From: Eledone cirrhosa
Taxonomy: Eukaryota
Assembly (NCBI GenBank): GCA_964016885.1
Contig: OZ024742.1
Coordinates: 226,362,001-226,426,000, forward strand
Direction of reading: 5' to 3'
DNA length: 64,000 nucleotides
The notes under the pieces were generated by a model. It made no database searches, was not told the DNA's origin, and worked only from the letters and a program-made list of their open reading frames with translations. Every line of letters starts with the position of its first letter. The stretch's first letter is position 1. Shown here in pieces: positions 23,502-63,930 of the stretch. The position numbers and the translations under genes were made by a program.

Positions 23502-25131
23502 AGCATCATGAGCTCTGCTTTCACCACCTCTCTCTAGCACCATGAGCTCTGCTTTCACCACCTCTGCTTAGCATCATGAGCTCTGCTTTCACTACCTCTG
23601 CTTAGCATCATGAGCTCTGCTTTCACCACCTCTGCCTAGCACCATGAGCTCTGCTTTCACCACCTCTGCCTAGCACCATGAGCTCTGCTTTCACCACCTC
23701 TGCCTAGCACCATGAGCTCTGCTTTCACCACCTCTCTCTAGCACCATGAGCTCTGCTTTCACCACCTCTGCTTAGCATCATGAGCTCTGCTTTCACCACC
23801 TCTGCTTAGCATCATGAGCTCTGCTTTCACCACCTCTGCTTAGCACCATGAGCTCTGCTTTCACTACCTCTGCTTAGCATCATGAGCTCTGCTTTCACCA
23901 CCTCTGCCTAGCACCATGAGCTCTGCTTTCACCACCTCTGCCTAGCACCATGAGCTCTGCTTTCACCACCTCTGCCTAGCACCATGAGCTCTGCTTTCAC
24001 CACCTCTCTCTAGCACCATGAGCTCTGCTTTCACCACCTCTGCTTAGCATCATGAGCTCTGCTTTCACCACCTCTGCCTAGCACCATGAGCTCTGCTTTC
24101 ACCACCTCTGCTTAGCATCATGAGCTCTGCTTTCACCACCTCTGCTTAGCACCATGAGCTCTGCTTTCACTACCTCTGCTTAGCATCATGAGCTCTGCTT
24201 TCACCACCTCTGCTTAGCACCATGAGCTCTGCTTTCACTACCTCTGCTTAGCATCATGAGCTCTGCTTTCACCACCTCTGCTTAGCATCTTGAGCTCTGC
24301 TTTCACCACTTCTGCCTAGCATCATGAGCTCTGCTTTCACTACCTCTGCCTAGCATCTTGAGCTCTGCTTTCACTACCTCTGCTTAGCATCATGAGCTCT
24401 GCTTTCACCACTTCTGCCTAGCATCATGAGCTCTGCTTTCACTACCTCTGCTTAGCATCATGAGCTCTGCTTTCACTACCTCTGCCTAGCATCATGAGCT
24501 CTGCTTTCACTACCTCTGCTTAGCATCATGAGCTCTGCTTTCACTACCTCTGCTTAGCATCATGAGCTCTGCTTTCACTACCTCTGCCTAGCATCATGAG
24601 CTCTGCTTTCACTACCTCTGCCTAGCATCATGAGCTCTGCTTTCACTACCTCTGCTTAGCATCATGAGCTCTGCTTTCACTACCTCTGCTTAGCATCATG
24701 AGCTCTGCTTTCACTACCTCTGCCTAGCATCATGAGCTCTGCTTTCACTACCTCTGCCTAGCATCATGAGCTCTGCTTTCACTACCTCTGCTTAGCATCA
24801 TGAGCTCTGCTTTCACTACCTCTGCCTAGCATCATGAGCTCTGCTTTCACTACCTCTGCTTAGCATCATGAGCTCTGCTTTCACTACCTCTGCTTAGCAT
24901 CATGAGCTCTGCTTTCACTACCTCTGCCTAGCATCATGAGCTCTGCTTTCACTACCTCTGCTTAGCATCATGAGCTCTGCTTTCACTACCTCTGCCTAGC
25001 ATCATGAGCTCTGCTTTCACTACCTCTGCTTAGCATCATGAGCTCTGCTTTCACTACCTCTGCTTAGCATCCTGAGCTCTGCTTTCACCACTTCTGCCTA
25101 GCATCATGAGCTCTGCTTTCACCACTTCTGA
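23502..25131. repeat. 34-bp minisatellite AGCATCATGAGCTCTGCTTTCA(C/T)ACCTCTGC(C/T)T-type, ~48 copies
   Basis: Period 34 (catgag at 23541, 23575, ...); highly homogeneous. Confidence 0.97.
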
Positions 25132-27140: not shown

Positions 27141-27200
27141 GGATGATATATATCATCATCATCATCTTCGTTTAACGTCCACTTTCCACGCTGGCATGGG

Positions 27201-27238
<38 letters not shown>

Positions 27239-27240
<2 letters not shown>

Positions 27241-29715
27241 CACAAACTTTAAAAAACCCGACAACCACCTGATCACCTATAGATCAGGGGAGCACTCTAG
27301 TCAGATAGATTTTATCCTCATCAGAGGACGTGACAGATGGACGGTTGTAAACACAAAAGCCTTCCCTGATGAGGAATGTACATCCCAATATAGCTTAGTT
27401 GTCAGCGACCTCACAGTCAGAACTAGACGAACCTGGAAACAGAGGCCAACCTGGAGAAGAAAGATCTGGAAGCTGAAAGACCCCTCAACCAGTAACAGAG
27501 TTAAAGATATTTTACTCAACGCCTATGACAGTAAAGAAGAACAGATAGAGACATTCAATGTAGAAGAGAACTGGGAGTTCCTAAAAAATAACTTACTAGA
27601 GGCGACGGATGAGGTCTGTGGCTGGAGTAAGACCTCAAGCAGGAGAGTGATTTGGTGGTGGAACAATAAGGTAGATGAGGCAGTTAAGGCCAAGAGACAG
27701 GCATGGAAAGAATGGAAGAACGGGGGGAGCAGGGTACATTACATAGAGACCAAGAGGGAAGCTAGGCGACAAGTATACTTAGCTAGGAGGGAAGCAGAGG
27801 ATAGAAAATTCAAGCATGTTTTGCAACGTGAGGACCAGAAACAGGAGGTGTTCAAGATTGCGAGGCAGTGTGTCAGAGAGAGTTGTGATGTCATTGGAGA
27901 GAAGTGTATCCGGAATATAAAGGTGACCTTGCCCTCACAAGTGCTGAGAAGAAAGATGTATGGTAGAGTCATTATGATAGATTACTAAATGAGGAGAATG
28001 CATGGAAAGAAGAGACCCTACCCCAAGTAAACCCTATAGAGGGGCCAGCAGTACAAGTCAGCAGCAACGTAGTAAGTAAGGCAATCAAAGATATGAAGAT
28101 GGGGAAGGCAACCGGTCTATCGGGTATAGCTGCCGAGATGCTGAAGGCATCTGGGTCTGTAAGTCACACTATAACCACATGTATTGTTAACCAGGTAATA
28201 CTAGAAGGTGTCATACCAAAAGATTGGTGCAGTAGCATCATTGTCAACTGCTACAAAGGTAAAGGTGATGCACTAGATAGAGGAAACTATAGAGGTATAA
28301 AGCTGATGGACCAGGTCATGAAAGTAATAGAAAGAGTTATAGCACAGTTGATTAGGGACCGGGTGAAAATAGACGAGATGCAATTTGGGTTTGTACCAGG
28401 AAGAGGCACCACTGATGCCCTCTTCCTTGTGAGGCAGTTACAGGAAAAGTACCTAGCTAAAAGTAAGTCACTCTACTTGGCATTTGTCGACCTTGAGAAA
28501 GCCTTTGACAGAGTTCCACGTGCTGTAATCTGGTGGGCTCTTAGAAAACTAGGAGTAGATGAATGGCTTGTGAAAGCGGTACAAGCCATGTATAGGGGAG
28601 CAGTCAGCAAAGTTAGGATTAGCAATGAGTATAGCGAGGAATTTAGCGTACAGGTTGGGGTCCACCAGGGCTCTGTTCTTAGCCCTCTCCTGTTCATGAT
28701 AGTCCTGCAGGCAATAACGGAGGAGTTTAAGACCGGATGCCTATGGGAACTCCTGTATGCTGATGACCTTGCACTTATAGCTGAATCTATGGTAGAACTA
28801 GAGAATAAATTCCAAACTTGAAAGCAGGAACTAGAAAGAAAGGCTCTCAAAGTCAACATGACAAAGACTAAGGTCCTTGTAAGTAGACGAGAAAACAGAA
28901 CCCAGATCCCCTCAGGGAAATGACCTTGCTCAGTATGTAGGAAAGGTGTAGGTAGGAACTCCATTCTCTGCCCCAAATGCAAACAATGGGTACACAAGAG
29001 ATGTAGCGGGATCTCAGGAAGCTTAATTAAGAATGTAGGCTTCACATGCAGCAGCTGTGCTGGGATAGCAAGCAGCAAACAGCCACAGGAAACAAGTACC
29101 ACCAATCTCTGGGAGGGCTCTGTAGAAACAGTAGACAGCTTCTGCTACCTAGGTGACCGAATTAGCAGCGGAGGTGGGTGTTCAGAAAGTACAATAACTA
29201 GGGTAAGAACGGGATGGAAGAAGTTTAGGGAACTACTACCACTGCTAGCTGCAAAAGGCTTCTCCATCAGAATGAAAGGCAGACTGTATGATGCGTGTAT
29301 CCGAACAGCGATGTTGCATGGTAGTGAGACCTGGGCGCTGAAGGTGGAAGACTTACGTAGATTAGAGAGAAACGAAGCCTGCACGCTCCGATGGATGTGT
29401 AACAGTAATATACATGAACGACAAAGCATAAATGAATTGAGAGAGAGACTGAGCATAAGAGGAATCAAATGCTGTGTGCAGGAGAGGCGGTTGCGCTGGT
29501 ATGGATATGTGATGCGTATGAAGGATGACAGCTGCATAAAAAGGTGCAGAGCACTAGAAGTCAATGGAAACCGCGGAGTGGGGAGACCCAAGATGACCTG
29601 GGATGAGGTGATAAAAGCCGACCTTACCCAATTACACCTCTCAAAGGCACACGACCGTGACCTCTGGCGTCACGCAGTAATACAGAGTACCCGACCTCCC
29701 ATGGGTACAAGCTGA
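27239..29715 (+). pseudogene. RTE ORF2 pseudogene (1 frameshift near 27915; TGA stops at 28819 and 28921)
   Basis: ORFs 28093-28821 and 29272-29715 share a frame; only two TGA codons interrupt it. Confidence 0.9.
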
Positions 29716-30020: not shown

Positions 30021-30459
30021 ATATATATATATATATATATATAAAAGTTATATCTGTATAAATACAGTGTGTGTAACCGTGATTGCACACATAATTTGCA
30101 TATAATTAGAGCTTGCTTTAGTAATTAATTAAGATATATAGTAAGAGGTTTGCTATCAGCTGAAGTGTATCAAGATGTCCATTTCAGAATAATCTTAAGA
30201 GCAAATGGGTATATATACTCATCAAATACATGTTTCCTTGTGGCTGATTGGATGATACACATGTCTTCTGATGAGGGTCCAATTAGATATAAAAATATTA
30301 AAGATATTGTTATGCTTTGGGAGGGTCATGTTGCCAGTAAGAAACACACGCACCAGTTGCTTTCATTCCAATTTATTATAAATTAAATTTATAAATTTAA
30401 GAATTTATAAATTTCCGGTTGGTTGGTTGGTTCCACAACCGGACGATTGTTCATATATT

Positions 30460-30502
30460 GTCAAAGTTCTTTCGTCACACATTCTGTGACCTCTTCAGTG
30501 AC
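30460..30502 (-). ncRNA. Minimal type-I hammerhead motif (left arm)
   Basis: Minus strand reads gtca-CTGAAGA-g-gtcaca-gaatg-tgtgac-GAAA-gaac-TT-tgac. Confidence 0.7.
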
Positions 30503-30947
30503 TGGGGATTCCTTTCTTTGTTTTTGTGCCTCTCCTTTGTTCTATCCTACGCCATCTTGTTTTTGTGTGTGTTGTGTGCTTAGTTTGTGCATGTGTTACA
30601 TCCGGGTGTCTGTGTGTGTTTATATTTGTTTATTTATTTGTTTATTTACATGTTACTGGTTGGTTGTTTGTTCTATGTGTGTGTGTGTTTTCATTTTGTC
30701 CTTAATTGTAAGTTGTGATGTTGCTATTCCATGAATGGAATAGCAACATCACAACTTACAATTAAGGACAAAATGAAAACACACACACACATAGAACAAA
30801 CAACCAACCAATAACATGTAAATAAACAAATAAATAAACAAATATAAACACACACAGACACCCGGATGTAACACATGCGCAAACTAAGCACACAACACAC
30901 ACAAAAACAAGATGGCGTAGACACAAAAACAAAGAAAAGAATCCCCA

Positions 30948-30990
30948 GTCACTGAAGAGGTCACATAATGTGTGACGAAAGAACTTTGAC
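30948..30990 (+). ncRNA. Minimal type-I hammerhead motif (right arm)
   Basis: gtca-CTGAAGA-g-gtcaca-taatg-tgtgac-GAAA-gaac-TT-tgac. Stem I gtca/tgac, 6-bp stem II, CUU triplet; AATAAA about 80 nt downstream. Confidence 0.7.
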
Positions 30991-31391
30991 AATATATGAA
31001 CAACCATCTGGTTGTGGAACCAACCAACCAACCGGAAATTTATAAATTCTTAAATTTATAAATTTAATTTATAATAAATTGGAATGAAAGCAACTGGTGC
31101 GTGTGTTTTTTACTGGCAACATGACCCTCCCAAAGCATAACAATATCGGTTTCAACACACGTTTTCAGATAAAGAATCTTCCTAAACAAATTCAGAAACG
31201 AAATATTAAAGATGTTTATCATTTTTTCAATTTACAAGAAAATTTGTATTTTCTGGCATGTTTGCACACATACATATTAGATATACACATTGGTGAAGTC
31301 CTGGTTACACACTCTGTATTTAGACAGATATAACTTTGTCATACACGTCAGCTACTAGCACACTTTTTACTATATATATGTATATATATAT

Positions 31392-37019: not shown

Positions 37020-37595
37020 CTAGGGCCATGGAAAGAACCATACTGGGAATATCATTGCAGGAGCATATCCAATATGAGGTAATTTGAGAATAGAACAGAG
37101 AGTAATGTATGTGATCACAGAATCCCAAAAGCATCATGTCTGCTGGACCAGACATGTCAGAAGGTTCACAAACAACAAATGGATCTGTGTAGTTGTCTAG
37201 CAGTATCCAAAAGATTAGGATAGACCATCTGAATGACTTCTGCTGGGCCAGACATTTCACAAGATTCGCAAACAACAGGTGCACCCATGGAGCTGTCGGG
37301 TGGTATCCAAGATTACAGAAGAGACTACTTACTTGGCCAGGCATGCTATAAGGTTTATATACTAGTGGATTCGTGCTGTTGTTGAGCGGCATCCAAGAGA
37401 TTGGAAGATAACACTGGGCTGGACATCCTACAAGATTCACAGACAAGTGGATCCATGCCATTATTGAATGGTATTTAAGAGATTGCAAGAGACCACTTGG
37501 AAGACATCCTAGATGATGAGATAGAGCACATAGGTAAATTATTCAGATCTAAATGGAAGAGAAGGACACAAACAAGGGAGGTGTGGAAGTGCAGT
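37020..37595 (+). mobile_element. Old RTE LINE 3' fragment with four diverged tandem WAGH..RF...W segments
   Basis: tgctggaccagacatg (37141), tgctgggccagacatt (37241), acttggccaggcatg (37331), cactgggctggacatc (37411); then agaccacttggaagac (RPLGR). Confidence 0.6.
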
Positions 37596-38260
37596 GACCA
37601 GTGATGTATAAAGACATCTGATAGTCTGGTCCATCCACTATGACCAGTGATGTATAAAGACATCTGATAGTCTGGTCCATCCACTGTGACGAGTGATGTA
37701 TAAAGACATCTGATAGTCTGGTCCATCCACTGTGACCAGTGATGTATATGGACATCTGATAGTCTGGTCAATCTATTGTGACCAGTGGTGTATAAGGACA
37801 TCTGATAATCTGGTCACCCTACTGTGACCAGTGGTGTATAAGGACATCTGATAGTCTGGTCAATCTATTGTGACCAGTGATTTATAAGGGCATCTGATAG
37901 TCTGGTCAATCTGTTATGAACAGTGGTGTATAAGGACATCTTATAGTCTAGTCAATCTGTTATGACCAGTGATATATAAGGACATCTGATAGTCTGGTCA
38001 CTCTATTGAGACCAGTATTGTATAAGGATATCTGATAGTCTGGTCACTCCCCTGTGACCAGTATTGTATAAGGACATCTGATAGTCTGGTCAATCCATTA
38101 TGACCAGTGATATATGAGGACATCTGATAGTCTGGTCAATCTATTGTAACCAGTGATGTACAAGGACATCTGTAGTCTGGTCACTCCATTTTGACCCGTG
38201 ATGTATAAGGACATCTGATAGTCTGGTCACTCCATTATGACCAGTGATATATAAGGACAT
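37594..38260. repeat. 46-bp minisatellite, ~14.5 copies
   Basis: gtgaccagtgatgtataaggacatctgatagtctggtcaatctatt; gac(c/g) starts at 37596, 37642, 37688. Confidence 0.95.
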
Positions 38261-39421: not shown

Positions 39422-40727
39422 CAGGGTACAGCCGATATTTGTTCTCAAGATTACTGTCTAGGAAAAAATAACACAGTAGTTTTATTTTTTAAGATATATT
39501 TATCAAACTTGGGTCAGTTTGTCTTCATGGCTTGTTCTTTCGATCTCACTTGATAAACCCACCATTGGCTTTGATGACGGCCTCAAGGCGGCCTCGGAAC
39601 CGGATACAGGCCTTCGTCACTGTCCCCCAACTTAGGCCCCTAAAGGCACTTGTGATCCTGGCCTTCAGATCGTCTTTTGTATTGCAGCTAGATCTGTTGG
39701 TGTCTCATTCCACTGCGCCCCACACAAAAAAGTTGAGGGGGTTGCAGTCAGGCAAGCTGGGAGGCCAGATGTCGGGTGAAGTGTGGTCGACGAAGTTCTC
39801 TGACAGCCAGGGTTGGGTCTTTCGGCTGGTATGGCAGGGCGGTGAGTCTTGCTGCCACACGTACGGCCTACCTGCAGCTACCTGGTCGATCCAGGGCTTT
39901 ACTACCTCGCTAAGAACGCGGATGTAGCCATCGGTGTTCAGCTTGAGGCCCTCAGGGAAGAAGTGAGGTGGCATTACGTCACCTTAACTTTTGACGACAC
40001 CTAAGACCAATGTTGTCGCTGGAAACTTTGTCTGCATGACTCTGGGCACATCTTTGGATGAGACAGCGAGCCATCTGTTGTTCTGGGAGTTGATCTCCTG
40101 GTCTTGGCAGAAGTTTTTCTCGTCAGAGAAAAACCACAGCATGTCTGGCTCCAGTGGGTGTTTCAACTTGTTGATCAGCTTCTTTGTGTGCTTCAGTCGC
40201 TTTACTTGCATTGCCTTTGACAGAAATTGTCCTTTCCTCATCTTGTATGAAACGTAGCGAATGTCTTCATGTACCACCAGCCTAATGAGCTTTTCATCCA
40301 CACCTTTCTCCCTTGCAATGGCACGCTTCGACTTGCTTGGTTCATTGTTGATGATATCCTGAACTTCAGTGACAAACTCGACGTTCTGAAGGCGTCAGAT
40401 CGTCGATCATGTGTTTTGCTCTCTGATGTTGCTTCGTAGTCGAATCCTGAATCTTCCAATTCCTTTCTGACCTTTTCCACCATTATCCTGCTGACGCTGA
40501 GAAAGTCTGAAATTTCCTTATTTGTCCTCCCCGCGCGGATTCCAAGAAGAACTCTGTGTCTCTTTCACAAATTTGGAGGTTCAAAATTATTCATAATCAA
40601 TTATTCTGAAAATAAATAATGGAAATATAGTCACTGTTTTTATGAAGACAAGAGTGACAACGGAAGTAAAAAAAATTTGCATAAAATTAGCAGTTGAAAA
40701 TGGCAAACAAATATCATCCACACCCTG
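39422..40727 (-). mobile_element. Full-length decayed Tc1/mariner transposon, DD37D (maT) family
   Basis: Imperfect TIRs CAGGGT..GATATTTGTT, TA flanks, 1306 bp. Confidence 0.9.
39546..40594 (-). pseudogene. DD37D transposase pseudogene
   Basis: WFFSDEKNF, WQQDSPPCH, then 37 residues to PDCNPL(N). The third Asp has become Asn (ctcgac>ctcaac). Frameshifts and stops are present; it ends VIKANGGFIK*. Confidence 0.9.
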
Positions 40728-40885: not shown

Positions 40886-41105
40886 TACCTGGCATTACGA
40901 CCAATAGAGAGTATTAGCAATTGGAAAGACCAACAGAAACATTGTTTCCTCAGACCAATTTGACAAAAGTCAATCGACTGTCGATATATGATGATGATGT
41001 GTGTGTGTATTTATATAATATATATATATCCTTCATTTTTGTATTTTTTTTGTAATATCCTTCATGTGAAATCATGTTGAGATAGATATACATACTTTAG
41101 GAATC

Positions 41106-41153
41106 TCATGTTGCCAATAAAAACACATGCATGTGTTTTTATTGGCAACATGA
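41106..41153. repeat. Perfect 48-bp palindrome from the same element family as 30303-31147
   Basis: tcatgttgccaataaaaacacatg|catgtgtttttattggcaacatga, continuing as cccttccaaaatataacaat. Confidence 0.9.
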
Positions 41154-41550
41154 CCCTTCCAAAATATAACAATCAATATATATACACCAACATACATACA
41201 AATACACCTACACATATATATCATCATCACCATCATTTAACAGCTGCTTTTCCATACTAGCATGGTTTGGAAAGGTCGTCACAAACCAAGTGAGTACTTA
41301 ATCGGTGTTACCAACCACTTTACAGAGTGTACTGGGTGCATGTTATCATGTCACCAACACTAGAGCGGTTGTCATGTCCTTGTCACAAATGAAGTCTTCT
41401 CAACCTTTTGACTTGTTTTCTATATGTATACATACACACACACACAGTGTCTACCATATATATACACACACGCACATGCACACACACACACACACAATAT
41501 ATATATATATATAGAGAGAGAGACACACACAAACTCACATCACATAGACA

Positions 41551-51715: not shown

Positions 51716-52289
51716 GCTGTGGTTGTAGTAGTAGATGATGGTGGTGGTGGTGGTGGTGTAGTAGTAGTAGATGGTGGTAGTGGTGGTAATGGTGGTAATG
51801 GTGGTGATGGTGGTGGTGGTGGTGGTGTAGTAGTAGTAGATGGTGGTAGTGGTGGTAATGGTGGTAATGGTGGTGATGGTGGTGGTGGTGGTGGTAATGG
51901 TGGTGGTGGTGGTGGTGGTGGTGGTGTAGTAGTAGTAGATGGTGGTAGTGGTGGTAATGGTGGTGATGGTGGGGTGGTGGTGGTGGTGGTGGTGGTAATG
52001 GTGGTGATGGTGGTGGTGGTGGTGGTGTAGTAGTAGTAGTAGATGGTGGTAGTGGTGGTAATGGTGGTGATGGTGGTCATGGTGGTGGTGGTGGTGTAGT
52101 AGTAAATGGTGGTAGTGGTGGTAATGGTGGAGATGGTGGTGGTGGTGGTGTAGTAGCAGATGGTGGTAGTAGTGGTAATGGTGGTGGTGGTGTAGTAGCA
52201 GATGGTGGTAGTGGTGGTAATGGTGGTGATGGTGTAGTAGTAGATGGTGGTAGTGGTGGTAATGGTGGTGATGGTGGTGGTGGTGGTGT

Positions 52290-55200
52290 AGTGTAGTAGT
52301 GGTAGTTGGTGGTGGTGATCTAGTGTAGTAGCGGTTGGTGATGATAGTGGTGGTGGTGGTGTAGTGTAGTGTAGTAGTGGTAGTTTGTGGTGGTGTAGTG
52401 TAGTAGTGGTAGTTGGTGGTGGTGTAGTGTGGAAGTTGTAGTTAGTGGTGGTGTATGTAGTAGTAGTAGTTGGTGGTGGTGTAGTGTAGTAGTGGTAGTT
52501 GGTGGTGGTGGTGTAGTGTAGTAGTGGTAGTTGGTGGTGGTGTAGTGTAGTAGTGGTAGTTGGTGGTGGTGGGGTAGTGTAGTAGTGGTAGTTGGTGGTG
52601 GTGGTGTAGTGTAGTAGTGGTAGTTTGTGGTGGTGTAGTGAAGTAGTGGTAGTTGGTGGTGGTGGTGTAGTGTAGTAGTGGTAGTTGGTGGTGGTGTAGT
52701 GTAGTAGTGGTAGCTGGTGGTGGTGGTGGTGTAGTGTAGTAGTGGTAGTTGGTGGTGGTGTAGTGTAGTAGTGGTAGTTGGTGGTGGTGGTGTAGTGTAG
52801 TAGTGGTAGGTGGTGGTGGGGGTGTAGTGTAGTAGTGGTAGTTGGTGGTGGTGTAGTGTAGTAGTGGTAGGTGGTGGTGGGGGTGTAGTGTAGTAGTGGT
52901 AGTTGGTGGTGGTGGTGTAGTGTGGTAGTTGGTGGTGGTGTAGTGTAGTAGTGGTAGTTGGTGGTGGTGGTGTAGTGTAGTAGTGGTAGTTGGTGGAGGT
53001 GGTGTAGTGTAGTAGTGGTAGTTGGTGGTGGTGTAGTGTAGTAGTGGTAGTTGGTGGTGGTGGTGTAGTGTAGTAGTGGTAGTGGTAGTTGGTGGAGGTG
53101 GTGTAGTGTAGTAGTGGTAGTTGGTGGTGGTGGTGTAGTGTAATAGTGGTTGTTGGTGGTGGTGGTGTAGTGTAGTAGTGGTAGTTGGTGGTGATGGTGT
53201 AGTGTAGTAGTGGTAGTTGGTGGAGGTGGTGTAGTGTAGTAGTGGTAGTTGGTGGTGGTGGTGGTGGTGTAGTGTAGTAGTTGTAGTTGGTGGTGGTGGT
53301 GTAGTGTAGTAGTGGTTGTTGGTGGTGGTGGTGTAGTAGTGGTAGTTGGTGGTGTAGTGTAGTAGTGGTTGTTGGTGGTGGTATAGTGTAGTAGTGGTAG
53401 TTGGTGGTGGTGTAGTGTAGTAGTGGTAGTTGGTGGTGGTGGTGTAGTGTAGTAGTGGTAGTTGGTGGTGGTGGTGGAGTGTAGTAGTGATAGTTGGTGG
53501 TGGTGGTGTAGTGTAGTAGTGGTAGTTGGTGGTGGTGGTATAGTGTAGTAGTGGTAGTTGGTGGTGGTGGTGGTGGTGTAGTAGTGGTAGCTGGTGGTGG
53601 TGGTGTAGTGTAGTAGTGGTAGTTGGTGGTGGTGGTGAAGTGTAGTAGTGGTACTTGGTGGTGGTGTAGTGTTGTAGTGGTAGTTGGTGGTGGTAGTGTG
53701 TTAGTGGTAGTTGGTGGTGGTGGTGTAGTAGTGGTTGTTGGTGGTGGTGTAGTGTAGTAGTGGTAGTTGGTGGTGGTGTAGTGTAGTAGTGGTTGTTGGT
53801 GGTGGTGTAGTGTAGTAATGGTAGTTGGTGGTGGTGGTGTAGTTTAGTAGTGGTAGTTGTTGGTGGTGTAATGTAGTAGTGGTAGTTGGTGGTGGTGGTG
53901 TAGTGTAGTAGTGGTAGTTGGTGGTGGTGTAGTGTATTGTAGTAGTGGTAGTTGGTGGTGGTGGTGGTGGTGTAGTGTAGTAGTTGTAGTTGGTGGTGGT
54001 GGTGTAGTGTAGTAGTGGTTGTTGGTGGTGGTGGTGTAGTAGTGGTAGTTGGTGGTGTAGTGTAGTAGTGGTTGTTGGTGGTGGTATAGTGTAGTAGTGG
54101 TAGTTGGTGGTGGTGTAGTGTAGTAGTGGTAGTTGGTGGTGGTGGTGTAGTGTAGTAGTGGTAGTTGGTGGTGGTGGTGGAGTGTAGTAGTGGTAGTTGG
54201 TGGTGGTGGTGTAGTGTAGTAGTGGTAGTTGGTGGTGGTGGTATAGTGTAGTAGTGGTAGTTGGTGGTGGTGGTGGTGGTGTAGTAGTGGTAGCTGGTGG
54301 TGGTGGTGTAGTGTAGTAGTGGTAGTTGGTGGTGGTGGTGAAGTGTAGTAGTGGTACTTGGTGGTGGTGTAGTGTTGTAGTGGTAGTTGGTGGTGGTAGT
54401 GTGTTAGTGGTAGTTGGTGGTGGTGGTGTAGTAGTGGTTGTTGGTGGTGGTGTAGTGTAGTAGTGGTAGTTGGTGGTGGTGTAGTGTAGTAGTGGTTGTT
54501 GGTGGTGGTGTAGTGTAGTAATGGTAGTTGGTGGTGGTGGTGTAGTTTAGTAGTGGTAGTTGTTGGTGGTGTAATGTAGTAGTGGTAGTTGGTGGTGGTG
54601 GTGTAGTGTAGTAGTGGTAGTTGGTGGTGGTGGTGGTGTAGTGTAGTAGTGGTAGCTGGTGGTGGTGGTGTAGTGTAGTAGTGGTAGTTGGTGGTGGTGG
54701 TGTAGTGTAGTAGTGGTAGTTGGTGGTGGTGGTGGTGTAGTGTAGTAGTGGTTGTTGGTGGTGGTGGTGTAATGTAGTAGTGGTAGTTGGTGGTGGTGTA
54801 ATGTAGTAGTGGTAGTTGGTGGTGGTGTAGTGTAGTAGTGGTAGTTGGTGGTGGTGTAGTGTAGTAGTGGTAGGTGGTGGTGGTGGTGTAGTGTAGTAGG
54901 GGTAGTTGGTGGTGGTGTAGTGTAGTAGTGGTAGTTGGTGGTGGTGTAGTTTAGTAGTGGTAGTTGTTGGTGGTGTGTAATGTAGTAGTGGTAGCTGGTG
55001 GTGGTGGTGGTGTAGTGTAGTAGTGGTAGTTGGTGGTGGTGGTGTAGTGTAGTAGTGGTAGCTGGTGGTGGTGGTGTAGTGTAGTAGTGGTAGTTGGTAG
55101 TTGGTGGTGTAGTGTAGTAGTGGTAGTTGGTGGTGGTGGTGTAATGTAGTAGTGGCAGTTGGTGGTGGTGTAGTGTAGTAGTGGTAGTTGGTGGTGGTGT

Positions 55201-58200
55201 AGTGTAGTAGTGGTAGTTGGTGGTGGTGGTGTAGTGTAGTAGTGGTAGTTGGTGGTGGTGGTGTAGTGTAGTAGTGGTAGTTGGTGGTGGTGGTGTAGTG
55301 TAGTAGTGGTAGTTGGTGGTGGTGGTGTAGTGTAGTAGTGGTAGTTGGTGGTGGTGTAGTGTAGTAGTGGTAGGTGGTGGTGGTGCTGTAGTGTAGTAGT
55401 GGTAGTTGGTGGTGGTGGTGTAGTGTAGTAGTGGTAGTTGGTGGTGGTGGTGTAGTGTAGTAGTGGTAGGTGGTGGTGGTGGTGTAGTGTAGTAGTGGTA
55501 GTTGGTGGTGGTGGTGTAGTGTAGTAGTGGTAGTTGGTGGTGGTGCTGTGTTGTAGTAGTGGTAGTTGGTGGTGGTGGTGTAGTGTAGTAGTGGTAGTTG
55601 GTGGTGGTGGTGTAATGTAGTAGTGGTAGTTGGTGGTGGTGCTGTGTTGTAGTAGTGGTAGTTGGTGGTGGTGGTGTAGTGTAGTAGTGGTTGTTGGTGG
55701 TGGTGGTGTAGTGTAGTAGTGGTAGTTGGTGGTGGTGCTGTGTTGTAGTAGTGGTAGTTGGTGGTGGTGGTGTAGTGTAGTAGTGGTAGTTGGTGGTGGT
55801 GGTGTAATGTAGTAGTGGTAGTTGGTGGTGGTGCTGTGTTGTAGTAGTGGTAGTTGGTGGTGGTGGTGTAGTGTAGTAGTGGTTGTTGGTGGTGGTGGTG
55901 TAGTGTAGTAGTGGTAGTTGGTGGTGGTGGTGTAATGTAGTAGTGGTAGTTGGTGGTGGTGCTGTGTTGTAGTAGTGGTAGTTGGTGGTGGTGGTGTAGT
56001 GTAGTAGTGGTAGTTGGTGGTGTAGTGTAGTAGTGGTAGTTGGTGGTGGTGGTGTAATGTAGTAGTGGTAGTTGGTGGTGGTGGTGTAATGTAGTAGTGG
56101 TAGTTGGTGGTGGTGTAGTGTAGTAGTGGTAGTTGGTGGTGGTGGTGTAGTGTAGTAGTTGTAGTTGGTGGTGGTGGTGTAGTGTAGTAGTTGTAGTTGG
56201 TGGTGGTGGTGTAGTGTAGTGGTGGTGGTTGTAGTTGTTGGTGGTGGTTTGTGTAGTAGTGGTAGTTGGTGGTGGTGTAGTGTTGTAGTGGTTGTTGGTG
56301 GTGGTGGTGTAGTAGTTGTAGTTGGTGGTGGTGTAGTAGTGGTAGTTGGTGGTGGTGGTGTAGTGTAGTAGTGGTATTTGGTGGTGCTGGTGGTGTAGTA
56401 GTGGTTGTTGGTGGTGTAGTGTAGTAGTGGTAGTTTGTGGTGGTGTAGTGTAGTAGTGGTAGTTGGTGGTGGTGGTGTAGTGTGGTAGTGGTAGTTGGTA
56501 GTGGTGGTGTAGTGTAGTGTAGTGTAGTAGTGGTAGTTGGTGGTGTAGTGTAGTAGTGGTTGTTGGTGGTGGTGTAGTTTAGTAGTGGTAGTTGTTGGTG
56601 GTGTAGTGTAGTAGTGGTAGTTGGTGGTGGTGTAGTGTAGTAGTGGTAGTTGGTGGAGGTGGTGTAGTGTAGTAGTGGTAGTTGGTGGTGGTGGTGTAAT
56701 GTAGTAGTGGTAGTTGGTGGTGGTGGTGTAGTGTAGTAGTGGTAGTTGGTGGTGGTGCTGTGTTGTAGTAGTGGTCGTTGGTGGTGGTGGTGTAGTGTAG
56801 TAGTGGTTGTTGGTGGTGGTGGTGTAGTGTAGTAGTGGTTGTTGGTGGTGGTGTAGTGTGGTAGTTGTAGTTGGTGGTGGTGGTGTAGTGTGGTAGTTGG
56901 TGGTGGTGTAGTGTAGTAGTGGTAGTTGGTGGTGGTGTAGTGTAGTACTGGTAGTTGATGGTGGTGTAGTGTAGTAGTGGTAGTTGGTGGTGGTGGTGTA
57001 GTGTAGTAGTGGTAGTTGGTGGTGGTGGTGTAGTTTAGTAGTGGTAGTTGGTGGTGGTGCTGTGTTGTAGTAGTGGTAGTTGGTGGTGGTGGTGTAGTGT
57101 AGTAGTGGTTGTTGGTGGTGGTGGTGTAGTGTAGTAGTGGTAGTTGGTGGTGGTGCTGTGTTGTAGTAGTGGTAGTTGGTGGTGGTGGTGTAGTGTAGTA
57201 GTGGTAGTTGGTGGTGGTGGTGTAATGTAGTAGTGGTAGTTGGTGGTGGTGCTGTGTTGTAGTAGTGGTAGTTGGTGTTGGTGGTGTAGTGTAGTAGTGG
57301 TAGTTGGTGGTGTAGTGTAGTAGTGGTAGTTGGTGGTGGTGGTGTAATGTAGTAGTGGTAGTTGGTGGTGGTGGTGTAATGTAGTAGTGGTAGTTGGTGG
57401 TGGTGTAGTGTAGTAGTGGTAGTTGGTGGTGGTGGTGTAGTGTAGTAGTTGTAGTTGGTGGTGGTGGTGTAGTGTAGTAGTTGTAGTTGGTGGTGGTGGT
57501 GTAGTGTAGTGGTGGTGGTTGTAGTTGTTGGTGGTGTTTTGTGTAGTAGTGGTAGTTGGTGGTGGTGTAGTGTTGTAGTGGTTGTTGGTGGTGGTGGTGT
57601 AGTAGTTGTAGTTGGTGGTGGTGTAGTAGTGGTAGTTGGTGGTGGTGGTGTAGTGTAGTAGTGGTTGTTGGTGGTGTAGTGTAGTAGTGGTAGTTTGTGG
57701 TGGTGTAGTGTAGTAGTGGTAGTTGGTGGTGGTGGTGTAGTGTGGTAGTGGTAGTTGGTAGTGGTGGTGTAGTGTAGTGTAGTGTAGTAGTGGTAGTTGG
57801 TGGTGTAGTGTAGTAGTGGTTGTTGGTGGTGGTGTAGTTTAGTAGTGGTAGTTGTTGGTGGTGTGTAATGTAGTAGTGGTAGTTGGTGGTGGTGGTGTAG
57901 TGTAGTAGTGGTAATTGGCTGTGGTGTAGTGTAGTAGTGGTAGTTGGTGGTGGTGTAGTGTAGTAGTGGTAGTTGGTGGTGGTGGTGTAGTGTAGTAGTG
58001 GTAGTTGGTGGTGGTGGTGTAGTGTAGTAGTGGTAGTTGGTGATGGTGTAGTGTAGTAGTGGTAGTTGGTGGTGGTGGTGTAGTGTAGTAGTGGTAGTTG
58101 GTGGTGGTGGTGTAGTGTAGTAGTGGTTGTTGGTGGAGGTGGTGTAGTGTAGTAGTGGTAGTTGGTGGTGGTGGTGTAGTGTAGTAGTGGTTGTTGGTGG

Positions 58201-61200
58201 AGGTGGTGTAGTGTAGTAGTGGTAGTTGGTGGTGGTGGTGTAGTGTAGTAGTGGTAGTTGGTGGTGATGGTGTAGTGTAGTAGTGGTAGTTGGTGGTGGT
58301 GGTGTAGTGTAGTAGTGGTTGTTGGTGGTGGTGGTGGTGTAGTGTAGTAGTGGTAGTTGGTTGTGGTGTAGTGTAGTAGTGGTAGTTGGTGGTGGTGTAG
58401 TGTAGTAGTGGTAGTTGGTGGTGGTGTAGTGTAGTAGTGGTAGTTGGTGGTGTTGTAGTGTAGTAGTGGTAGGTGGTGGTGGGGGTGTAGTGTAGTAGTG
58501 GTAGTTGGTGGTGGTGGTGTAGTGTAGTAGTGGTAGTTGGTGGTGGTGGTGGTGGTGGTGTAGTGTAGTAGTGGTAGTTGGTGTTGGTGGTGTAGTGTAG
58601 TAGTGGTTGTTGGTGGAGGTGGTGTAGTGTAGTAGTGGTAGTTGGTGGTGGTGTTGTAGTGTAGTAGTGGTTGTTGGTGGAGGTGGTGTATTGTAGTAGT
58701 GGTAGTTGGTGGTGGTGGTGTAGTGTAGTAGTGGTAGTTGGTGGTGATGGTGTAGTGTAGTAGTGGTAGTTGGTGGTGGTGGTGTAGTGTAGTAGTGGTT
58801 GTTGGTGGTGGTGGTGGTGTAGTGTAGTAGTGGTAGTTGGTTGTGGTGTAGTGTAGTAGTGGTAGTTGGTGGTGGTGGTGTAGTGTAGTAGTGGTAGTTG
58901 GTGGTGGTGGTGTAGTGTAGTAGTGGTAGTTGGTGGTGGTGTAGTGTAGTAGTGGTAGTTGGTGGTGGTGGTGTAGTGTAGTAGTGGTAGTTGGTGGTGG
59001 TGTAGTGTAGTAGTGGTAGTTGGTGGTGGTGGTGTAGTGTAGTAGTGGTTGTTGGTGGAGGTGGTGTAGTGTAGTAGTGGTAGTTGGTGGTGGTGGTGTA
59101 GTGTAGTAGTGGTTGTTGGTGGAGGTGGTGTAGTGTAGTAGTGGTAGTTGGTGGTGGTGGTGTAGTGTAGTAGTGGTAGTTGGTGGTGGTGGTGTAGTGT
59201 AGTAGTGGTAGTTGGTGGTGGTGGTGTAGTGTAGTAGTGGTTGTTGGTGGAGGTGTAGTGTAGTAGTGGTAGTTGGTGGTGGTGGTGTAGTGTAGTAGTG
59301 GTAGTTGGTGGTGATGGTGTAGTGTAGTAGTGGTAGTTGGTGGTGGTGTAGTGTAGTAGTGGTAATTGGCTGTGGTGTAGTGTAGTAGTGGTAGTTGGTG
59401 GAGGTGTAGTGTAGTAGTGGTAGTTGGTGGTGGTGGTGTAGTGTAGTAGTGGTAGTTGGTGGTGATGGTGTAGTGTAGTAGTGGTAGTTGGTGGTGGTGG
59501 TGGTGTAGTGTAGTAGTGGTAGTTGGTGGTGGTGGTGTAGTGTAGTAGTGGTAGTTGGTGGTGGTGGTGTAGTGTAGTAGTGGTAGTTGGTGGTGGTGCT
59601 GTAGTGTAGTAGTGGTAGGTGGTGGTGGTGGTGTAGTGTAGTAGTGGTAGTTGGTGGTGGTGGTGTAGTGTAGTAGTGGTTGTTGGTGGTGGTGGTGGTG
59701 TAGTGTAGTAGTGGTTGTTGGTGGTGGTGTAATGTAGTAGTGGTTGTTGGTGGTGGTGGTGTAATGTAGTAGTGGTAGTTGGTGGTGGTGTAGTGTAGTA
59801 GTGGTAGGTGGTGGTGGTGGTGTAGTGTAGTAGTGGTAGGTGGTGGTGGTGGTGTAGTGTAGTAGTGGTAGGTGGTGGTGATGGTGTAGTGTAGTAGTGG
59901 TAGGTGGTGGTGGTGGTGTAGTGTAGTAGTGGTAGTTGGTGGTGGTGGTGTAGTGTAGTAGTGGTTGTTGGTGGTGGTGGTGGTGTAGTGTAGTAGTGGT
60001 TGTTGGTGGTGGTGTAATGTAGTAGTGGTTGTTGGTGGTGGTGGTGTAATGTAGTAGTGGTAGTTGGTGGTGGTGTAGTGTAGTAGTGGTAGGTGGTGGT
60101 GGTGGTGTAGTGTAGTAGTGGTAGTTGGTGGTGGTGGTGTAGTGTAGTAGTGGTTGTTGGTGGTGGTGGTGGTGTAGTGTAGTAGTGGTTGTTGGTGGTG
60201 GTGTAATGTAGTAGTGGTTGTTGGTGGTGGTGGTGTAATGTAGTAGTGGTAGTTGGTGGTGGTGTAGTGTAGTAGTGGTAGGTGGTGGTGGTGGTGTAGT
60301 GTAGTAGTGGTAGGTGGTGGTGGTGTAGTGTAGTAGTGGTAGGTGGTGGTGGTGGTGGTGTAGTGTAGTAGTGGTAGTTGGTGGTGGTGTAATGTAGTAG
60401 TGGTTGTTGGTGGTGGTGGTGTAATGTAGTAGTGGTAGGTGGTGGTGGTGGTGTAGTGTAGTAGTGGTAGGTGGTGGTGGTGGTGTAGTGTAGTAGTGGT
60501 AGGTGGTGGTGGTGGTGGTGTAGTGTAGTAGTGGTAGGTGGTGGTGGTGGTGGTGTAGTGTAGTAGTGGTAGTTGGTGGTGGTGGTATAGTGTAGTAGTG
60601 GTAGTTGGTGGTGATGGTGTAGTGTAGTAGTGGTAGTTGGTGGTGGTGTAGTGTAGTAGTGGTAGTTGGTGGTGGTGTAGTGTAGTAGTGGTAGGTGGTG
60701 GTGGGGGTGTAGTGTAGTAGTGGTAGGTGGTGGTGGGGGTGTAGTGTAGTAGTGGTAGTTGGTGGAGGTGGTGTAGTGTAGTAGTGGTAGTTGGTGGTGG
60801 TGGTGGTGTAGTGTGGTAGTTGGTGGTGGTGGTGTAGTGTAGTAGTGGTAGTTGGTGGTGGTAGTGTAGTGTAGTAGTGGTAGTTGGTGGTGGTGGTGGT
60901 GTAGTGTAGTAGTGGTTGTTGGTGGTGGTGGTGTAGTGTAGTAGTGGTAGTTGGTGGTGGTGTAGTGTAGTAGTGGTAGTTGGTGGTGCTGTGTTGTAGT
61001 AGTGGTAGTTGGTGGTGTGTAGTGTAGTAGTGGTAGTTGGTGGTGGTGTAGTGTTGTAGTAGTGGTAGTTGGTGGTGTTGTGTTGTAGTAGTGGTAGTTG
61101 GTGGTGTGTAGTGTAGTAGTGGTAGTTGGTGGTGTGTAGTGTAGTAGTGGTAGTTGGTGGTGGTGTAGTGTAGTAGTGGTAGTTGGTGGTGTAGTGTAGT

Positions 61201-63930
61201 AGAGGTAGCTGGTGGTGGTGGTGTAGTGTAGTAGTGGTAGTTGGTGGTGTAGTGTAGTAGTGGTAGTTGGTGGTGGTGTAGTGTTGTAGTAGTGGTAGTT
61301 GGTGGTGTTGTGTTGTAGTAGTGGTAGTTGGTGGTGTGTAGTGTAGTAGTGGTAGTTGGTGGTGTAGTGTAGTAGAGGTAGCTGGTGGTGGTGGTGTAGT
61401 GTAGTAGTGGTAGTTGGTGGTGGTGGTGTAGGGTAGTAGTGGTAGTTGGTGGTGGTGGTGTAATGTAGTAGTGGTAGTTGGTGGTGGTGTAGTGTAGTAG
61501 TGGTAGTTGGTGGTGTAGTGTAGTAGAGGTAGCTGGTGGTGGTGGTGTAGTGTAGTAGTGGTAGTTGGTGGTGGTGGTGTAGTGTAGTAGTGGTAGTTGG
61601 TGGTGGTGGTGTAGGGTAGTAGTGGTAGTTGGTGGTGGTGGTGTAGTGTAGTAGTGGTTGTTGGTGGTGGTGGTGTAGTGTAGTAGTGGTTGTTGGTGGT
61701 GGTGGTGTAGTGTAGTAGTGGTAGCTGGTGGTGGTGGTGTAGTGTAGTAGTGGTAGTTGGTGGTGGTGGTGTAGTGTAGTAGTGGTTGTTGGTGGTGGTG
61801 GTGTAGTGTAGTAGTGGTAGTTGGTGGTGGTGTAGTGTAGTAGTGGTAGTTGGTGGTGGTGGTGTAGTGTAGTAGTGGTAGCTGGTGGTGGTGGTGTAGT
61901 GTAGTAGTGGTTGTTGGTGGTGGTGGTGTAGTGTAGTAGTGGTAGCTGGTGGTGGTGGTGTAGTGTAGTAGTGGTAGCTGGTGGTGGTGGTGTAGTGTAG
62001 TAGTGGTTGTTGGTGGTGGTGGTGTAGTGTAGTAGTGGTAGTTGGTGGTGGTGGTGTAGTGTAGTAGTGGTAGTTGGTGGTGGTGGTGTAGTGTAGTAGT
62101 GGTAGCTGGTGGTGGTGGTGTAGTGTAGTAGTGGTAGTTGGTGGTGGTGGTGTAGTGTAGTAGTGGTAGTTGGTGGTGGTGGTGTAGTGTAGTAGTGGTA
62201 GTTGGTGGTGGTGTAGTGTAGTAGTGGTAGTTGGTGGTGGTGGTGTAGTGTAGTAGTGGTTGTTGGTGGTGGTGGTGTAGTGTAGTAGTGGTAGCTGGTG
62301 GTGGTGGTGGTGGTGTAGTGTAGTAGTGGTAGCTGGTGGTAGTGGTGTAGCATAGTAGTGGTAGTTGGTGGTGGTGGTGTAGTGTATTAGTGGTTGTTGG
62401 TGGTGGTGGTGTAGTGTAGTAGTGGTAGCTGGTGGTGGTGGTGGTGGTGTAGTGTAGTAGTGGTTGTTGGTGGTGGTGGTGTAGTGTAGTAGTGGTAGCT
62501 GGTGGTGGTGGTGGTGGTGTAGTGTAGTAGTGGTAGCTGGTGGTGGTGGTGTAGTGTAGTAGTGGTAGTTGGTGGTGGTGGTGTAGTGTAGTAGTGGTAG
62601 TTGGTGGTGGTGGTGTAGTGTAGTAGTGGTAGTTGGTGGTGGTGGTGTAGTGTAGTAGTGGTAGTTGGTGGTGGTGGTGTAGTGTAGTAGTGGTAGTTGG
62701 TGGTGGTGGTGTAGTGTAGTAGTGGTAGTTGGTGGTGGTGGTGTAGTGTAGTAGTGGTAGCTGGTGGTGGTGGTGTAGTGTAGTAGTGGTTGTTGGTGGT
62801 GGTGGTGTAGTGTAGTAGTGGTAGCTGGTGGTGGTGGTGTAGTGTAGTAGTGGTAGCTGGTGGTGGTGGTGTAGTGTAGTAGTGGTAGTTGGTGGTGGTG
62901 GTGTAGTGTAGTAGTGGTAGTTGGTGGTGGTGGTGTTGGTGTAGTAGTGGTAGTTGGTGGTGGTGGTGTAGTGTAGTAGTGGTAGTTGGTGGTGGTGTAG
63001 CATAGTAGTGGTAGTTGGTGGTGGTGGTGTAGTGTATTAGTGGTTGTTGGTGGAGGTGGTGTAGTGTAGTAGTGGTAGTTGTTGGTGGAGTTGTAGTGTA
63101 GTAGTGGTAGTTGGTGGAGGTGGTGTAGTGTAGTAGTGGTAGTTGGTGGTGGTGTAGTGTAGTAGTGGTTGTTGGTGGTGGTGGTGTAGTGTAGTATTGG
63201 TAGTTGGTGGTGGTGTAGTGTAATAGTGGTAGTTGGTGGTGGTGTAGTGTAATATTGGTTGTTGTTGGTAGCGTTGCACTGTAGTAGTTGTAGTTGATGG
63301 TGGTGGTGGTGTAGTGTAGTAGTGATAGTTGGTGGTGGTGTAGTGTAATAGTGGTAGTTGGTGGTGGAAGTGGTGGTGTAGTAGTGGTAGTTGGTGGTGG
63401 GGGGGTGTAGTGTAGGAATGGTAGTTGGTGCTGGTGGTGGTGGTGTAGTAGTGGTAGTTGGTGGTGGGGGGGGGGGGTAGTGTAGTAGTGGTAGTTGGTG
63501 GTGGTGGTGTAGTGTAGTAGTGGTAGTTGGTGGTGGTGGTGTAGTGTAGTAGTGGTAGTTGGTGGTGGTGGTGTAGTGTAGTAGTGGTAGTTGGTGGTGG
63601 TGTAGTGTATTGTAGTAGTGGTAGTTGGTGGTGGTGTAGTGTAGTAGTGGTAGTTGGTGGTGGTGTAGTGTAGTGTAGTAGTGGTAGTTTGTGGTGGTGT
63701 AGTGTAGTAGTGGTTGATGGTGGTGCTGTAGTGTAGTAGTGGTAGTTGGTGGTGGTGTAGTGTAGTAGTGGTAGTTGGTGGTGTGTAGTGTAGTAGTGGT
63801 AGTTGGTGCTGGTGGTGTAGTGTAGTAGTGTTAGTTGGTGGTGGTGGTGGTTGTGTAGTGTAGTAGTTGTAGTTGGTGGTGGTGGTGTAGTGTAGTAGTG
63901 TTAGTTGGTGGTGGTGGTGGTGGTGGTGTT
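52290..63930. repeat. 11.6-kb G/T-rich satellite GTAGTGTAGTAGTGGTAGTT(GGT)2-6
   Basis: Hundreds of units with higher-order duplications at offsets 703 and ~1290. Confidence 0.97.

What the first reader, a model, noticed from the sequence alone, without database searches (positions are those of the whole stretch)
30303..31147. 845-bp palindrome carrying a minimal hammerhead ribozyme in each arm
Seen: the arms (430 and 413 bp) surround a 2-nt spacer and are about 98% identical with one 17-bp indel, so a simple read chimera is unlikely. Each arm holds gtca-CTGAAGA-g-[6-bp stem II]-GAAA-gaac-TT-tgac reading outward from the centre, followed by AATAAA. Known: minimal type-I hammerheads with palindromic stem III mark Penelope-like pLTRs and are proposed to cleave as dimers, and PLEs can form inverted pLTRs. 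Inference: a head-to-head non-autonomous PLE or retrozyme-like unit. A transcript from either strand would carry one sense ribozyme plus its antisense, so it must choose between a ~410-bp dsRNA hairpin (ADAR/Dicer substrate in an animal with heavy editing) and self-cleavage. The stem III loop AGAACT is one base off a perfect palindrome.
Basis: partly seen in the sequence, partly recalled or inferred. Interest (0 to 1): 0.8.

Follow-up and report, generated by a model that had tools for sequence, protein, structure and literature searches.

The report
Back-to-back Penelope retrotransposon insertion
The palindrome is two truncated ends of a very common Penelope-like retrotransposon inserted back to back, each with that element's usual hammerhead ribozyme motif (predicted not to cut here); it is an ordinary structure for this class and is repeated many times in this genome.

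Summary
The palindrome and both hammerhead motifs are real. Each arm is the 3' end (pseudo-LTR, pLTR) of an abundant autonomous Penelope-like element (PLE): RT plus C-terminal GIY-YIG endonuclease, ORF about 1,230 aa, Neptune/Nematis-type cysteine linker. About 19,800 exact copies of the hammerhead's 3' half lie in this genome. The insertion is longer than reported: the right arm continues into the 59-nt PLE 'tail' (to 31206), the left arm lacks it, and a 4-13-nt target duplication flanks the whole. It sits inside an older repeat whose paralogues show the empty site. Head-to-head pairs with a tail at one end only are the rule (38 of 42 pairs sampled) and were described in 2013 and 2021. The junction is unique in the genome, so this is a dead truncated insertion, not a non-autonomous unit or retrozyme. 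A switch between dsRNA and self-cleavage is unsupported: read-through RNA meets the antisense arm first (hairpin -695 versus ribozyme -10 kcal/mol), and no same-strand partner exists. No covariation was found. Residual interest: these insertions could test whether both cut target strands prime on PLE RNA.

The parts
30303..30732 (-). Left arm: 5'-truncated PLE copy (pLTR) pointing outward, ending at the tail-less 3' site
30730..31147 (+). Right arm: 5'-truncated PLE copy (pLTR) pointing outward, with a 17-nt deletion
31148..31206 (+).
30730..30765 (+). Last 11 codons and stop of the GIY-YIG endonuclease domain (HEWNSNITTYN*)
30730..30737 (.). Centre junction: CAT-GA-ATG mini-palindrome of the family, 3-nt overlap of the two copies; unique in the genome
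30948..30990 (+). Minimal type-I hammerhead motif: stem I 4 bp, extra G, stem II 6-7 bp, 1-bp stem III with AA loop, CUU triplet, predicted cut after 30986
30460..30502 (-). The same hammerhead motif in the left arm
31121..31206 (+). First 28 codons of the element's ORF (MTLPK...), 9 inside the pLTR and the rest in the tail
30293..30305 (+). Left copy of the target-site duplication (13 nt at most; 4 nt if the bases shared with the element's ends are counted as element)
31201..31213 (+). Right copy of the target-site duplication
30175..30305 (+). Left part of the older host repeat that was interrupted (itself hammerhead-like)
31201..31390 (+). Right part of the host repeat (right boundary approximate)

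Best explanation
This is one dead, doubly 5'-truncated insertion of an abundant endonuclease-containing Penelope-like retrotransposon: two pLTR copies lie head to head between target duplications, each with the family's standard minimal hammerhead motif, and they likely arose when both cut strands of the target primed reverse transcription on the element's RNA. Shown: family identity, both outer ends at the family's two fixed 3' end sites (one with the tail, one without), target duplication, empty site, unique junction. Inferred (about 55%): the GIY-YIG domain nicked both strands of an AT-rich site; each 3' end paired with a few AU-rich bases of the RNA and primed at one of the two start sites 59-60 nt apart; both cDNAs stopped early and were joined through the 3-nt CAT/ATG overlap. 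Inferred (about 90%): the hammerheads are passengers here. In the full-length element they would act on tandem RNA as dimers or with the element's protein. At this locus a read-through RNA would fold into a 400-bp hairpin that buries them, and there is no same-strand partner.
For: The arm matches full length elsewhere (2,348 candidates, 40 scored). Upstream of it other copies carry RT (YVDD) and GIY-YIG frames. Eight of 16 fetched loci (10 were picked for long open frames) have pLTR-ORF-pLTR with a 1,238-1,271-aa open frame and a hammerhead in both direct repeats. The protein has C-X4-C-xx-C before the VVY...C...C...YIG...H...H motifs; Atlas scores are 0.96-0.98 to RT, HTH_animal and GIY-YIG clusters. 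In 76 loci, 38 of 42 head-to-head pairs have the tail at exactly one end (P about 3e-8 against the 50% ceiling of independent ends), and 104 of 122 ends run into TA repeats. Of the first 100 listed hammerhead hits on contig C1, 10 (CUU list) and 23 (CUA list) neighbouring pairs are head to head within 6 kb, against 1 and 0 the other way round. In 10 of 11 paralogues of the host repeat the left flank runs straight into the right flank. In 12 of 28 short pairs the tail is on the shorter arm, which one folded-back cDNA cannot make without later deletion. The same anatomy is in PMC3846280 and PMC8557442; two start sites and extension of both strands in vitro are in PMC11167929.
Against: Pfam hits are below the curated cut-offs (GIY-YIG E 0.009, RVT_1 E 0.047; none for the whole protein) and the PDB search found nothing. 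The junction is exactly what a fold-back would give. In 23 other pairs only 39 of 266 arm mismatches lie at polymorphic sites (10% expected), so most pairs come from one template or near-identical ones. PMC11167929 found initiation without homology to the cut DNA, whereas I infer short pairing. No tree was built, so the clade is not fixed. Loci were chosen by similarity to the arm, tail or N-terminus, so the counts are not a random sample. No RNA data were available.
Confidence: 0.9

Rival explanations
1. Same element and same dead insertion, but the second arm was made by self-priming: one cDNA folded back at CAT-GA-ATG and copied itself, as proposed for Penelope in PMC3846280; the arms diverged later by mutation and gene conversion.
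For: The junction is a mini-palindrome and the arms start within 3 nt of each other. The first 76 positions are identical. Five of 28 short pairs are near-symmetric, and one (L035) has 0 mismatches in 255 sites. Most other pairs look like one template.
Against: 7 of 9 arm mismatches lie at sites polymorphic in the family (44 of 430 sites; P 2e-6; 5 are not CpG; 6 if only CUU-type copies are counted), which a self-copy does not give at birth. Twelve of 28 pairs have the tail on the shorter arm, though later central deletions could explain these.
Confidence: 0.35
2. One reading: a non-autonomous PLE or retrozyme-like unit whose RNA switches between an edited or diced hairpin and self-cleavage.
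For: Both hammerheads are intact, with stems I and II at pairing probability 0.88-1.0 when folded alone. A transcribed 400-bp hairpin would be an ADAR or Dicer substrate (general knowledge).
Against: The junction is single-copy. The motif is as conserved as in thousands of dead copies. The hairpin is -694.9 kcal/mol with the motif paired into it. The monomer folds no better than shuffles (z -0.93). Minimal hammerheads showed no cleavage as monomers (PMC4209133) or without protein (PMC11167929).
Confidence: 0.04
3. Assembly artefact: a hairpin or chimeric read duplicated one arm.
For: Long palindromes in repeats are a known artefact class (recalled). No listed contig spans the centre or the whole stretch. 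Polishing with reads from paralogues could put mismatches at polymorphic sites.
Against: Target duplication and empty-site paralogues; arms differ by 9 substitutions, a deletion and the tail; the same layout in 38 other pairs; an 89-nt contig with 0 differences crosses the left junction at single-copy depth in three runs of one sample, though only 27 letters into the arm.
Confidence: 0.02
4. A MITE or foldback DNA transposon with 400-bp terminal inverted repeats.
For: Long inverted arms with a target duplication.
Against: The arms are the 3' end of an RT-EN element, the two ends are unequal, the unit is single-copy, and inverted arms vary in length between insertions.
Confidence: 0.01

Closest known systems
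EN+ Penelope-like elements with an inverted pLTR, e.g. Pen2a_Av of Adineta vaga (PMC3846280; passages and Discussion read)
   Same: Inverted pLTR next to a direct one, head to head; tail at one end only; ORF start inside the pLTR and extended by the tail; target duplication of about 8-10 bp; palindrome or overlap at the junction; asparagine-rich stretch in the ORF.
   Different: Tail 59-60 nt instead of 31; about 20,000 copies instead of a few; here both copies are cut down to little more than the pLTR.
Neptune and Nematis clades of EN+ PLEs (PMC8557442; passages and Introduction read)
   Same: RT followed by C-terminal GIY-YIG with CCHH; CX2-5CxxC linker; (TA)n targets; hammerhead in the pLTR; inverted 5'-truncated copy.
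   Different: Clade not resolved (no tree); ORF about 1,230 aa with a long low-complexity stretch.
Minimal type-I hammerheads of metazoan PLEs (PMC4209133; parts 1-2 of 4 read)
   Same: Helix I 4-5 bp, long helix II, extra base between positions 9 and 10.1, G10.1-C11.1 pair, tiny helix III; the paper also reports opposite-strand pairs about 100-700 bp apart.
   Different: Loop III is AA (GA or UA in variants), so not a perfect palindrome; CUU triplet in this subfamily, CUA in the copies with long open frames.
PAc (Poseidon of Anolis) in vitro system (PMC11167929; parts 1-2 of 4 read)
   Same: Two 3' end sites bracket the tail inside the ORF start; AT-rich targets.
   Different: Poseidon lacks the cysteine linker; its hammerhead overlaps the start codon, here the cut site lies 135 nt upstream; PAc initiates without homology to the target.
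Non-LTR retrozymes (bioRxiv 10.64898/2026.07.22.740005; part 1 of 5 read)
   Same: Type-I hammerhead and kinship with pLTRs.
   Different: Retrozymes are head-to-tail tandem units on one strand; this is a single inverted pair with coding remnants and a unique junction.

Membership tests
EN+ Penelope-like element | Single ORF with RT and C-terminal GIY-YIG endonuclease | tested here: met
   Open frames of 1,238-1,271 aa in 8 loci; motifs; Atlas 0.96-0.98; Pfam hits weak, below cut-off
EN+ Penelope-like element | CCHH motif with two cysteines between GIY and YIG | tested here: met
   Read directly in P0001; definition from PMC8557442
EN+ Penelope-like element | pLTRs formed by partial tandems, ORF start inside the pLTR | tested here: met
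   Direct pLTR copies flank the ORF in L080-L089; ATG at 31121
EN+ Penelope-like element | Inverted 5'-truncated copy and a tail at one end only | tested here: met
   38 of 42 pairs; this locus
EN+ Penelope-like element | Target-site duplication | tested here: met
   4-13 nt; empty site in 10 of 11 host paralogues
EN+ Penelope-like element | RT groups with PLEs, sister to telomerase, in a tree | not tested
   No reference PLE proteins were fetched
Neptune/Nematis clade | CX2-5CxxC linker upstream of GIY-YIG | tested here: met
   C-X4-C-xx-C in P0001; shared by both clades, so it does not separate them
Neptune/Nematis clade | Phylogenetic placement in one of the two clades | not tested
   No tree built
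Minimal type-I hammerhead | Core CUGANGA, GAAA, UH with helices I and II | tested here: met
   0 of 33 core or stem positions polymorphic against 4 of 10 free positions (P 0.002), but only P 0.06 against the rest of the pLTR
Minimal type-I hammerhead | Palindromic 15.2-16.2 plus loop III | tested here: not met
   GAAC in most copies, GGAC in a subfamily, palindromic GTAC in single copies
Minimal type-I hammerhead | Compensatory changes in stems I and II | tested here: inconclusive
   Stems almost invariant in 115 copies; 3 double changes genome-wide at one pair, 2 of them pairing; none in four runs of other organisms
Minimal type-I hammerhead | Self-cleavage as a dimer or with protein | not testable with these tools
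   No excess of 5' truncations at the cut site: 3 of 66 against 1.5 expected
Non-LTR retrozyme | Head-to-tail tandem units, each with a hammerhead, amplified as a unit | tested here: not met
   Inverted pair; junction single-copy
MITE or foldback DNA transposon | Multi-copy unit with fixed, equal terminal inverted repeats | tested here: not met

The most novel reading that the evidence does not exclude
Head-to-head PLE insertions are made by twin priming: one ribonucleoprotein dimer primes both cut target strands, one at each of the two start sites, and sometimes on two different RNA copies. This locus would be a two-template case, and the thousands of such pairs in this genome would be an in-vivo test set that decides between twin priming and self-priming for PLEs.
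Probability: 0.4. Interest if true: 0.5.

Novelty: new member of a known kind. Interest (0 to 1): 0.18.

Why it matters
As a locus it matters little: it is one of probably thousands of inverted PLE insertions (extrapolated from the first 100 listed hits of each of two patterns on one contig). The family is of some use to specialists. It has copies with long open frames, about 19,800 exact hammerhead half-motifs, two subfamilies of equal size that differ in the cleavage triplet (CUU and CUA), and a strict one-tail rule. How PLEs form inverted repeats is still called open in PMC8557442 and PMC11167929, and this genome offers the numbers to test it. If transcribed, such palindromes would add to the double-stranded RNA that an editing-rich animal must handle, but nothing here shows transcription.

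Tried and rejected
Rfam at E up to 1: no hammerhead model hit; the miRNA hits are generic hairpins below cut-off. Pfam on the whole protein and the PDB sequence search: nothing. Sequencing runs: no RNA holder listed, which is no evidence on expression; no listed contig spans the centre or the whole stretch, which proves nothing either way. Covariation: looked for in 115 copies, by a pattern forcing a double change at one stem II pair (3 hits), and in four runs of other organisms (only loop, position 7, loop III and CpG-type changes); none found. A footprint of ribozyme cleavage in truncation points: 3 of 66, not enriched. My idea that most head-to-head pairs use two different templates: not supported, 39 of 266 mismatches at polymorphic sites in 23 other pairs; only this locus stands out. 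AATAAA as a poly(A) signal: kept in 109 of 115 copies but in AT-rich sequence with three more upstream, and tailed copies need RNA that reads past it; left open. Earlier scan notes: nothing found. Literature searches for this family in cephalopods (terms Penelope+Neptune+octopus; hammerhead+ribozyme+cephalopod+retrotransposon) listed no paper on it by title or abstract start; I did not open PMC6962438, Repbase and Dfam were not available, and no supplements were read, so the family may already be catalogued.

Full report
Observation. The sequence at 30303-31147 is a near-perfect inverted repeat. A global alignment gives arms of 430 and 413 nt with 9 substitutions and one 17-nt deletion. Each arm holds the motif described; these two were the only hits of a type-I descriptor on both strands of the window. 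Rfam does not recognise them. Folded alone, the right motif forms stems I and II with probabilities 0.88-1.0, at about -10 kcal/mol, no better than shuffles (z -0.93). The surroundings are AT-rich, microsatellite-rich animal DNA with a decayed LINE at about 27.2-29.7 kb, in a 3.0-Gb assembly. That it looks like an octopus genome is my recollection from the repeat content, not a tool result.

The arm is the 3' end of an autonomous retrotransposon. It has 2,348 candidate matches in the genome; the 40 scored match over the whole arm at 88-94%. Upstream of the arm, other copies continue into a frame that ends ...RQITEAININELQPKLNRKHEWNSNITTYN*, preceded by GIY-YIG and RT motifs; the window keeps only the last 11 codons, from 30730. 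One copy runs on from the arm into an ORF starting MTLPK. Searching with that N-terminus listed 150 matches. I fetched 10 with long open frames and 6 of the closest. Eight have an open frame of 1,238-1,271 aa between two direct copies of the arm, each with the hammerhead; two more have 1,070 and 1,173 aa; none of the six closest has a frame of 600 aa. The protein shows RT motifs with YVDD, a C-X4-C-xx-C linker, VVY...C...C...YIG and two downstream histidines, the layout that PMC8557442 gives for Neptune and Nematis. Pfam hits are weak and below cut-off (none for the whole protein), the PDB search was blank, and the Atlas places it at 0.96-0.98 with RT, HTH_animal and GIY-YIG clusters. No tree was built.

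True boundaries. Copies end at one of two sites: the end of the arm or 59-60 nt further on. The extension is the continuation of the ORF start, that is the PLE 'tail'. The window's right arm has it (to 31206) and the left arm does not. A 13-nt word stands at 30293-30305 and at 31201-31213; 9 of its letters could belong to the element's ends, so the duplication is 4-13 nt. The flanks belong to an older repeat (1,153 candidates), and in 10 of 11 fetched paralogues the left flank runs straight into the right flank. The two arms therefore went in as one event. At the centre the family itself reads CAT-GA-ATG, so the 'spacer' is element sequence and the copies overlap by 3 nt. This junction occurs once in the genome.

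How common. The 3' half of the hammerhead has 9,855 exact matches with a CUU triplet (the window's type) and 9,913 with CUA; the reversed controls give 0. Among the first 100 listed hits of each on contig C1, 10 and 23 neighbouring pairs lie head to head within 6 kb, against 1 and 0 tail to tail. In 76 loci (107 held at that point, 31 dropped as self, duplicates or host-repeat loci) there were 42 head-to-head pairs: 38 with a tail at exactly one end, 3 scored tail/tail (one of them a mis-scored ORF start) and 1 unclear; 104 of 122 ends run into TA repeats. The sample was chosen by similarity, not at random. This anatomy is published: an inverted pLTR, a tail on one of the inverted pLTRs, a 9-bp duplication and the ORF start inside the pLTR in PMC3846280 (passages and Discussion); the general scheme in PMC8557442 (passages); opposite-strand minimal hammerheads about 100-700 bp apart in PMC4209133 (parts 1-2 of 4).

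The ribozyme. The motif fits the minimal consensus of PMC4209133 except that loop III is not palindromic. In 115 other copies no core or stem position is polymorphic (0 of 33) while 4 of 10 free positions are (P 0.002); against the rest of the pLTR (40 of 387) the difference is only P 0.06. In a run of another organism where the family is abundant, the common changes are position 7, loop II and loop III, with about 5% change at the CpG. This fits constraint on the master elements, but no compensatory change was established. In all 10 loci with long open frames the 3' pLTR has the CUA triplet, often with a 5-bp stem I; the window's subfamily has CUU and 4 bp. At this locus activity is unlikely. 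A transcript entering from either flank makes the antisense arm first, and the whole folds at -694.9 kcal/mol with 406 pairs that bury the motif. A transcript starting inside an arm has one monomer and no partner. Minimal monomers did not cleave in PMC4209133, and the Anolis motif needed the protein and was dispensable for insertion in PMC11167929 (parts 1-2 of 4). Truncation points show no peak at the cut site (3 of 66). No RNA run was listed.

How it formed. PMC11167929 showed two start sites that bracket the tail, extension of both target strands and a predicted dimer. The one-tail rule and the short matches between target and both ends fit priming from both strands, one at each site (inference). 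In 12 of 28 short pairs the only tail in the pair is on the shorter arm, in 11 on the longer, and 5 are near-symmetric; a single folded-back cDNA cannot give the first class without later deletion. For the fold-back rival, the junction here is just what self-priming would leave, and in 23 other pairs only 39 of 266 mismatches lie at polymorphic sites (10% expected), so their arms mostly share a template. This locus is an outlier: 7 of 9 mismatches lie at polymorphic sites (P 2e-6), 5 of them not CpG, while both arms share seven non-majority letters and are no closer to each other (2.2%) than the left arm is to its nearest other copy. Two sibling templates or later gene conversion would both explain it; I cannot separate them.

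Reality of the assembly. In three runs of one sample, which may be the source of the assembly, an 89-nt contig with no differences crosses the left junction at single-copy depth, though only 27 letters into the arm; the centre was not shown. The duplication, empty site, unequal ends and 38 parallel cases make an artefact unlikely.

Verdict. An ordinary inverted insertion of an EN+ Penelope-like element of Neptune/Nematis type: new member of a known kind. My searches listed no paper on this family, but repeat libraries and supplements were not seen. No earlier scan notes matched. Interest 0.18.

Noticed in passing
window 30175-30305 and 31201-31390; L104, L107: The interrupted host repeat carries its own type-I hammerhead-like motif (CUGAUGA core, 5-bp stem II, palindromic stem III, UA site; best kept in L104). 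The palindrome inserted into the stem III and cut-site region, which is degenerate and AT-rich in this copy; probably a second, older PLE family and a chance target.
   Followed up: partly
genome-wide; L080-L095: Two equally abundant subfamilies differ in the cleavage triplet, CUU (9,855) and CUA (9,913); the 10 loci picked for long open frames have CUA in the 3' pLTR. L083 is a mosaic with CUU in its 5' and inverted pLTRs and CUA in the 3' one.
   Followed up: partly
window 30549-30557 (-) and 30908-30916 (+): AAGATGGCG lies about 40-55 nt upstream of each hammerhead, next to the 17-nt deletion of the right arm; it resembles a YY1-type initiator element (recalled, untested) and could mark the pLTR promoter.
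   Followed up: no
L081:1322-5008 (-), residues about 250-430: The ORF has a long asparagine/threonine/histidine-rich stretch before the RT, like the N-rich inserts described for rotifer Penelope elements.
   Followed up: no
window 27176-29715: Decayed LINE with an RT frame (YADD motif) broken into three pieces, just left of the locus.
   Followed up: no
window 42198-63928: About 22 kb of low-complexity ACA and TGG/TAG repeats, including a 32-nt satellite of about 388 copies at 51746-63919 with extreme strand skew; also 34-nt (23502-25130) and 46-nt (37594-38260) arrays.
   Followed up: no
window 39984-40394 (-): A 136-aa open frame that reads like a Tc1/mariner-type transposase fragment (recalled resemblance).
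   Followed up: no
window 41092-41173: Two short matches, in opposite orientation, to the 3' end of the arm: a small degenerate head-to-head remnant of the same or a related family.
   Followed up: no
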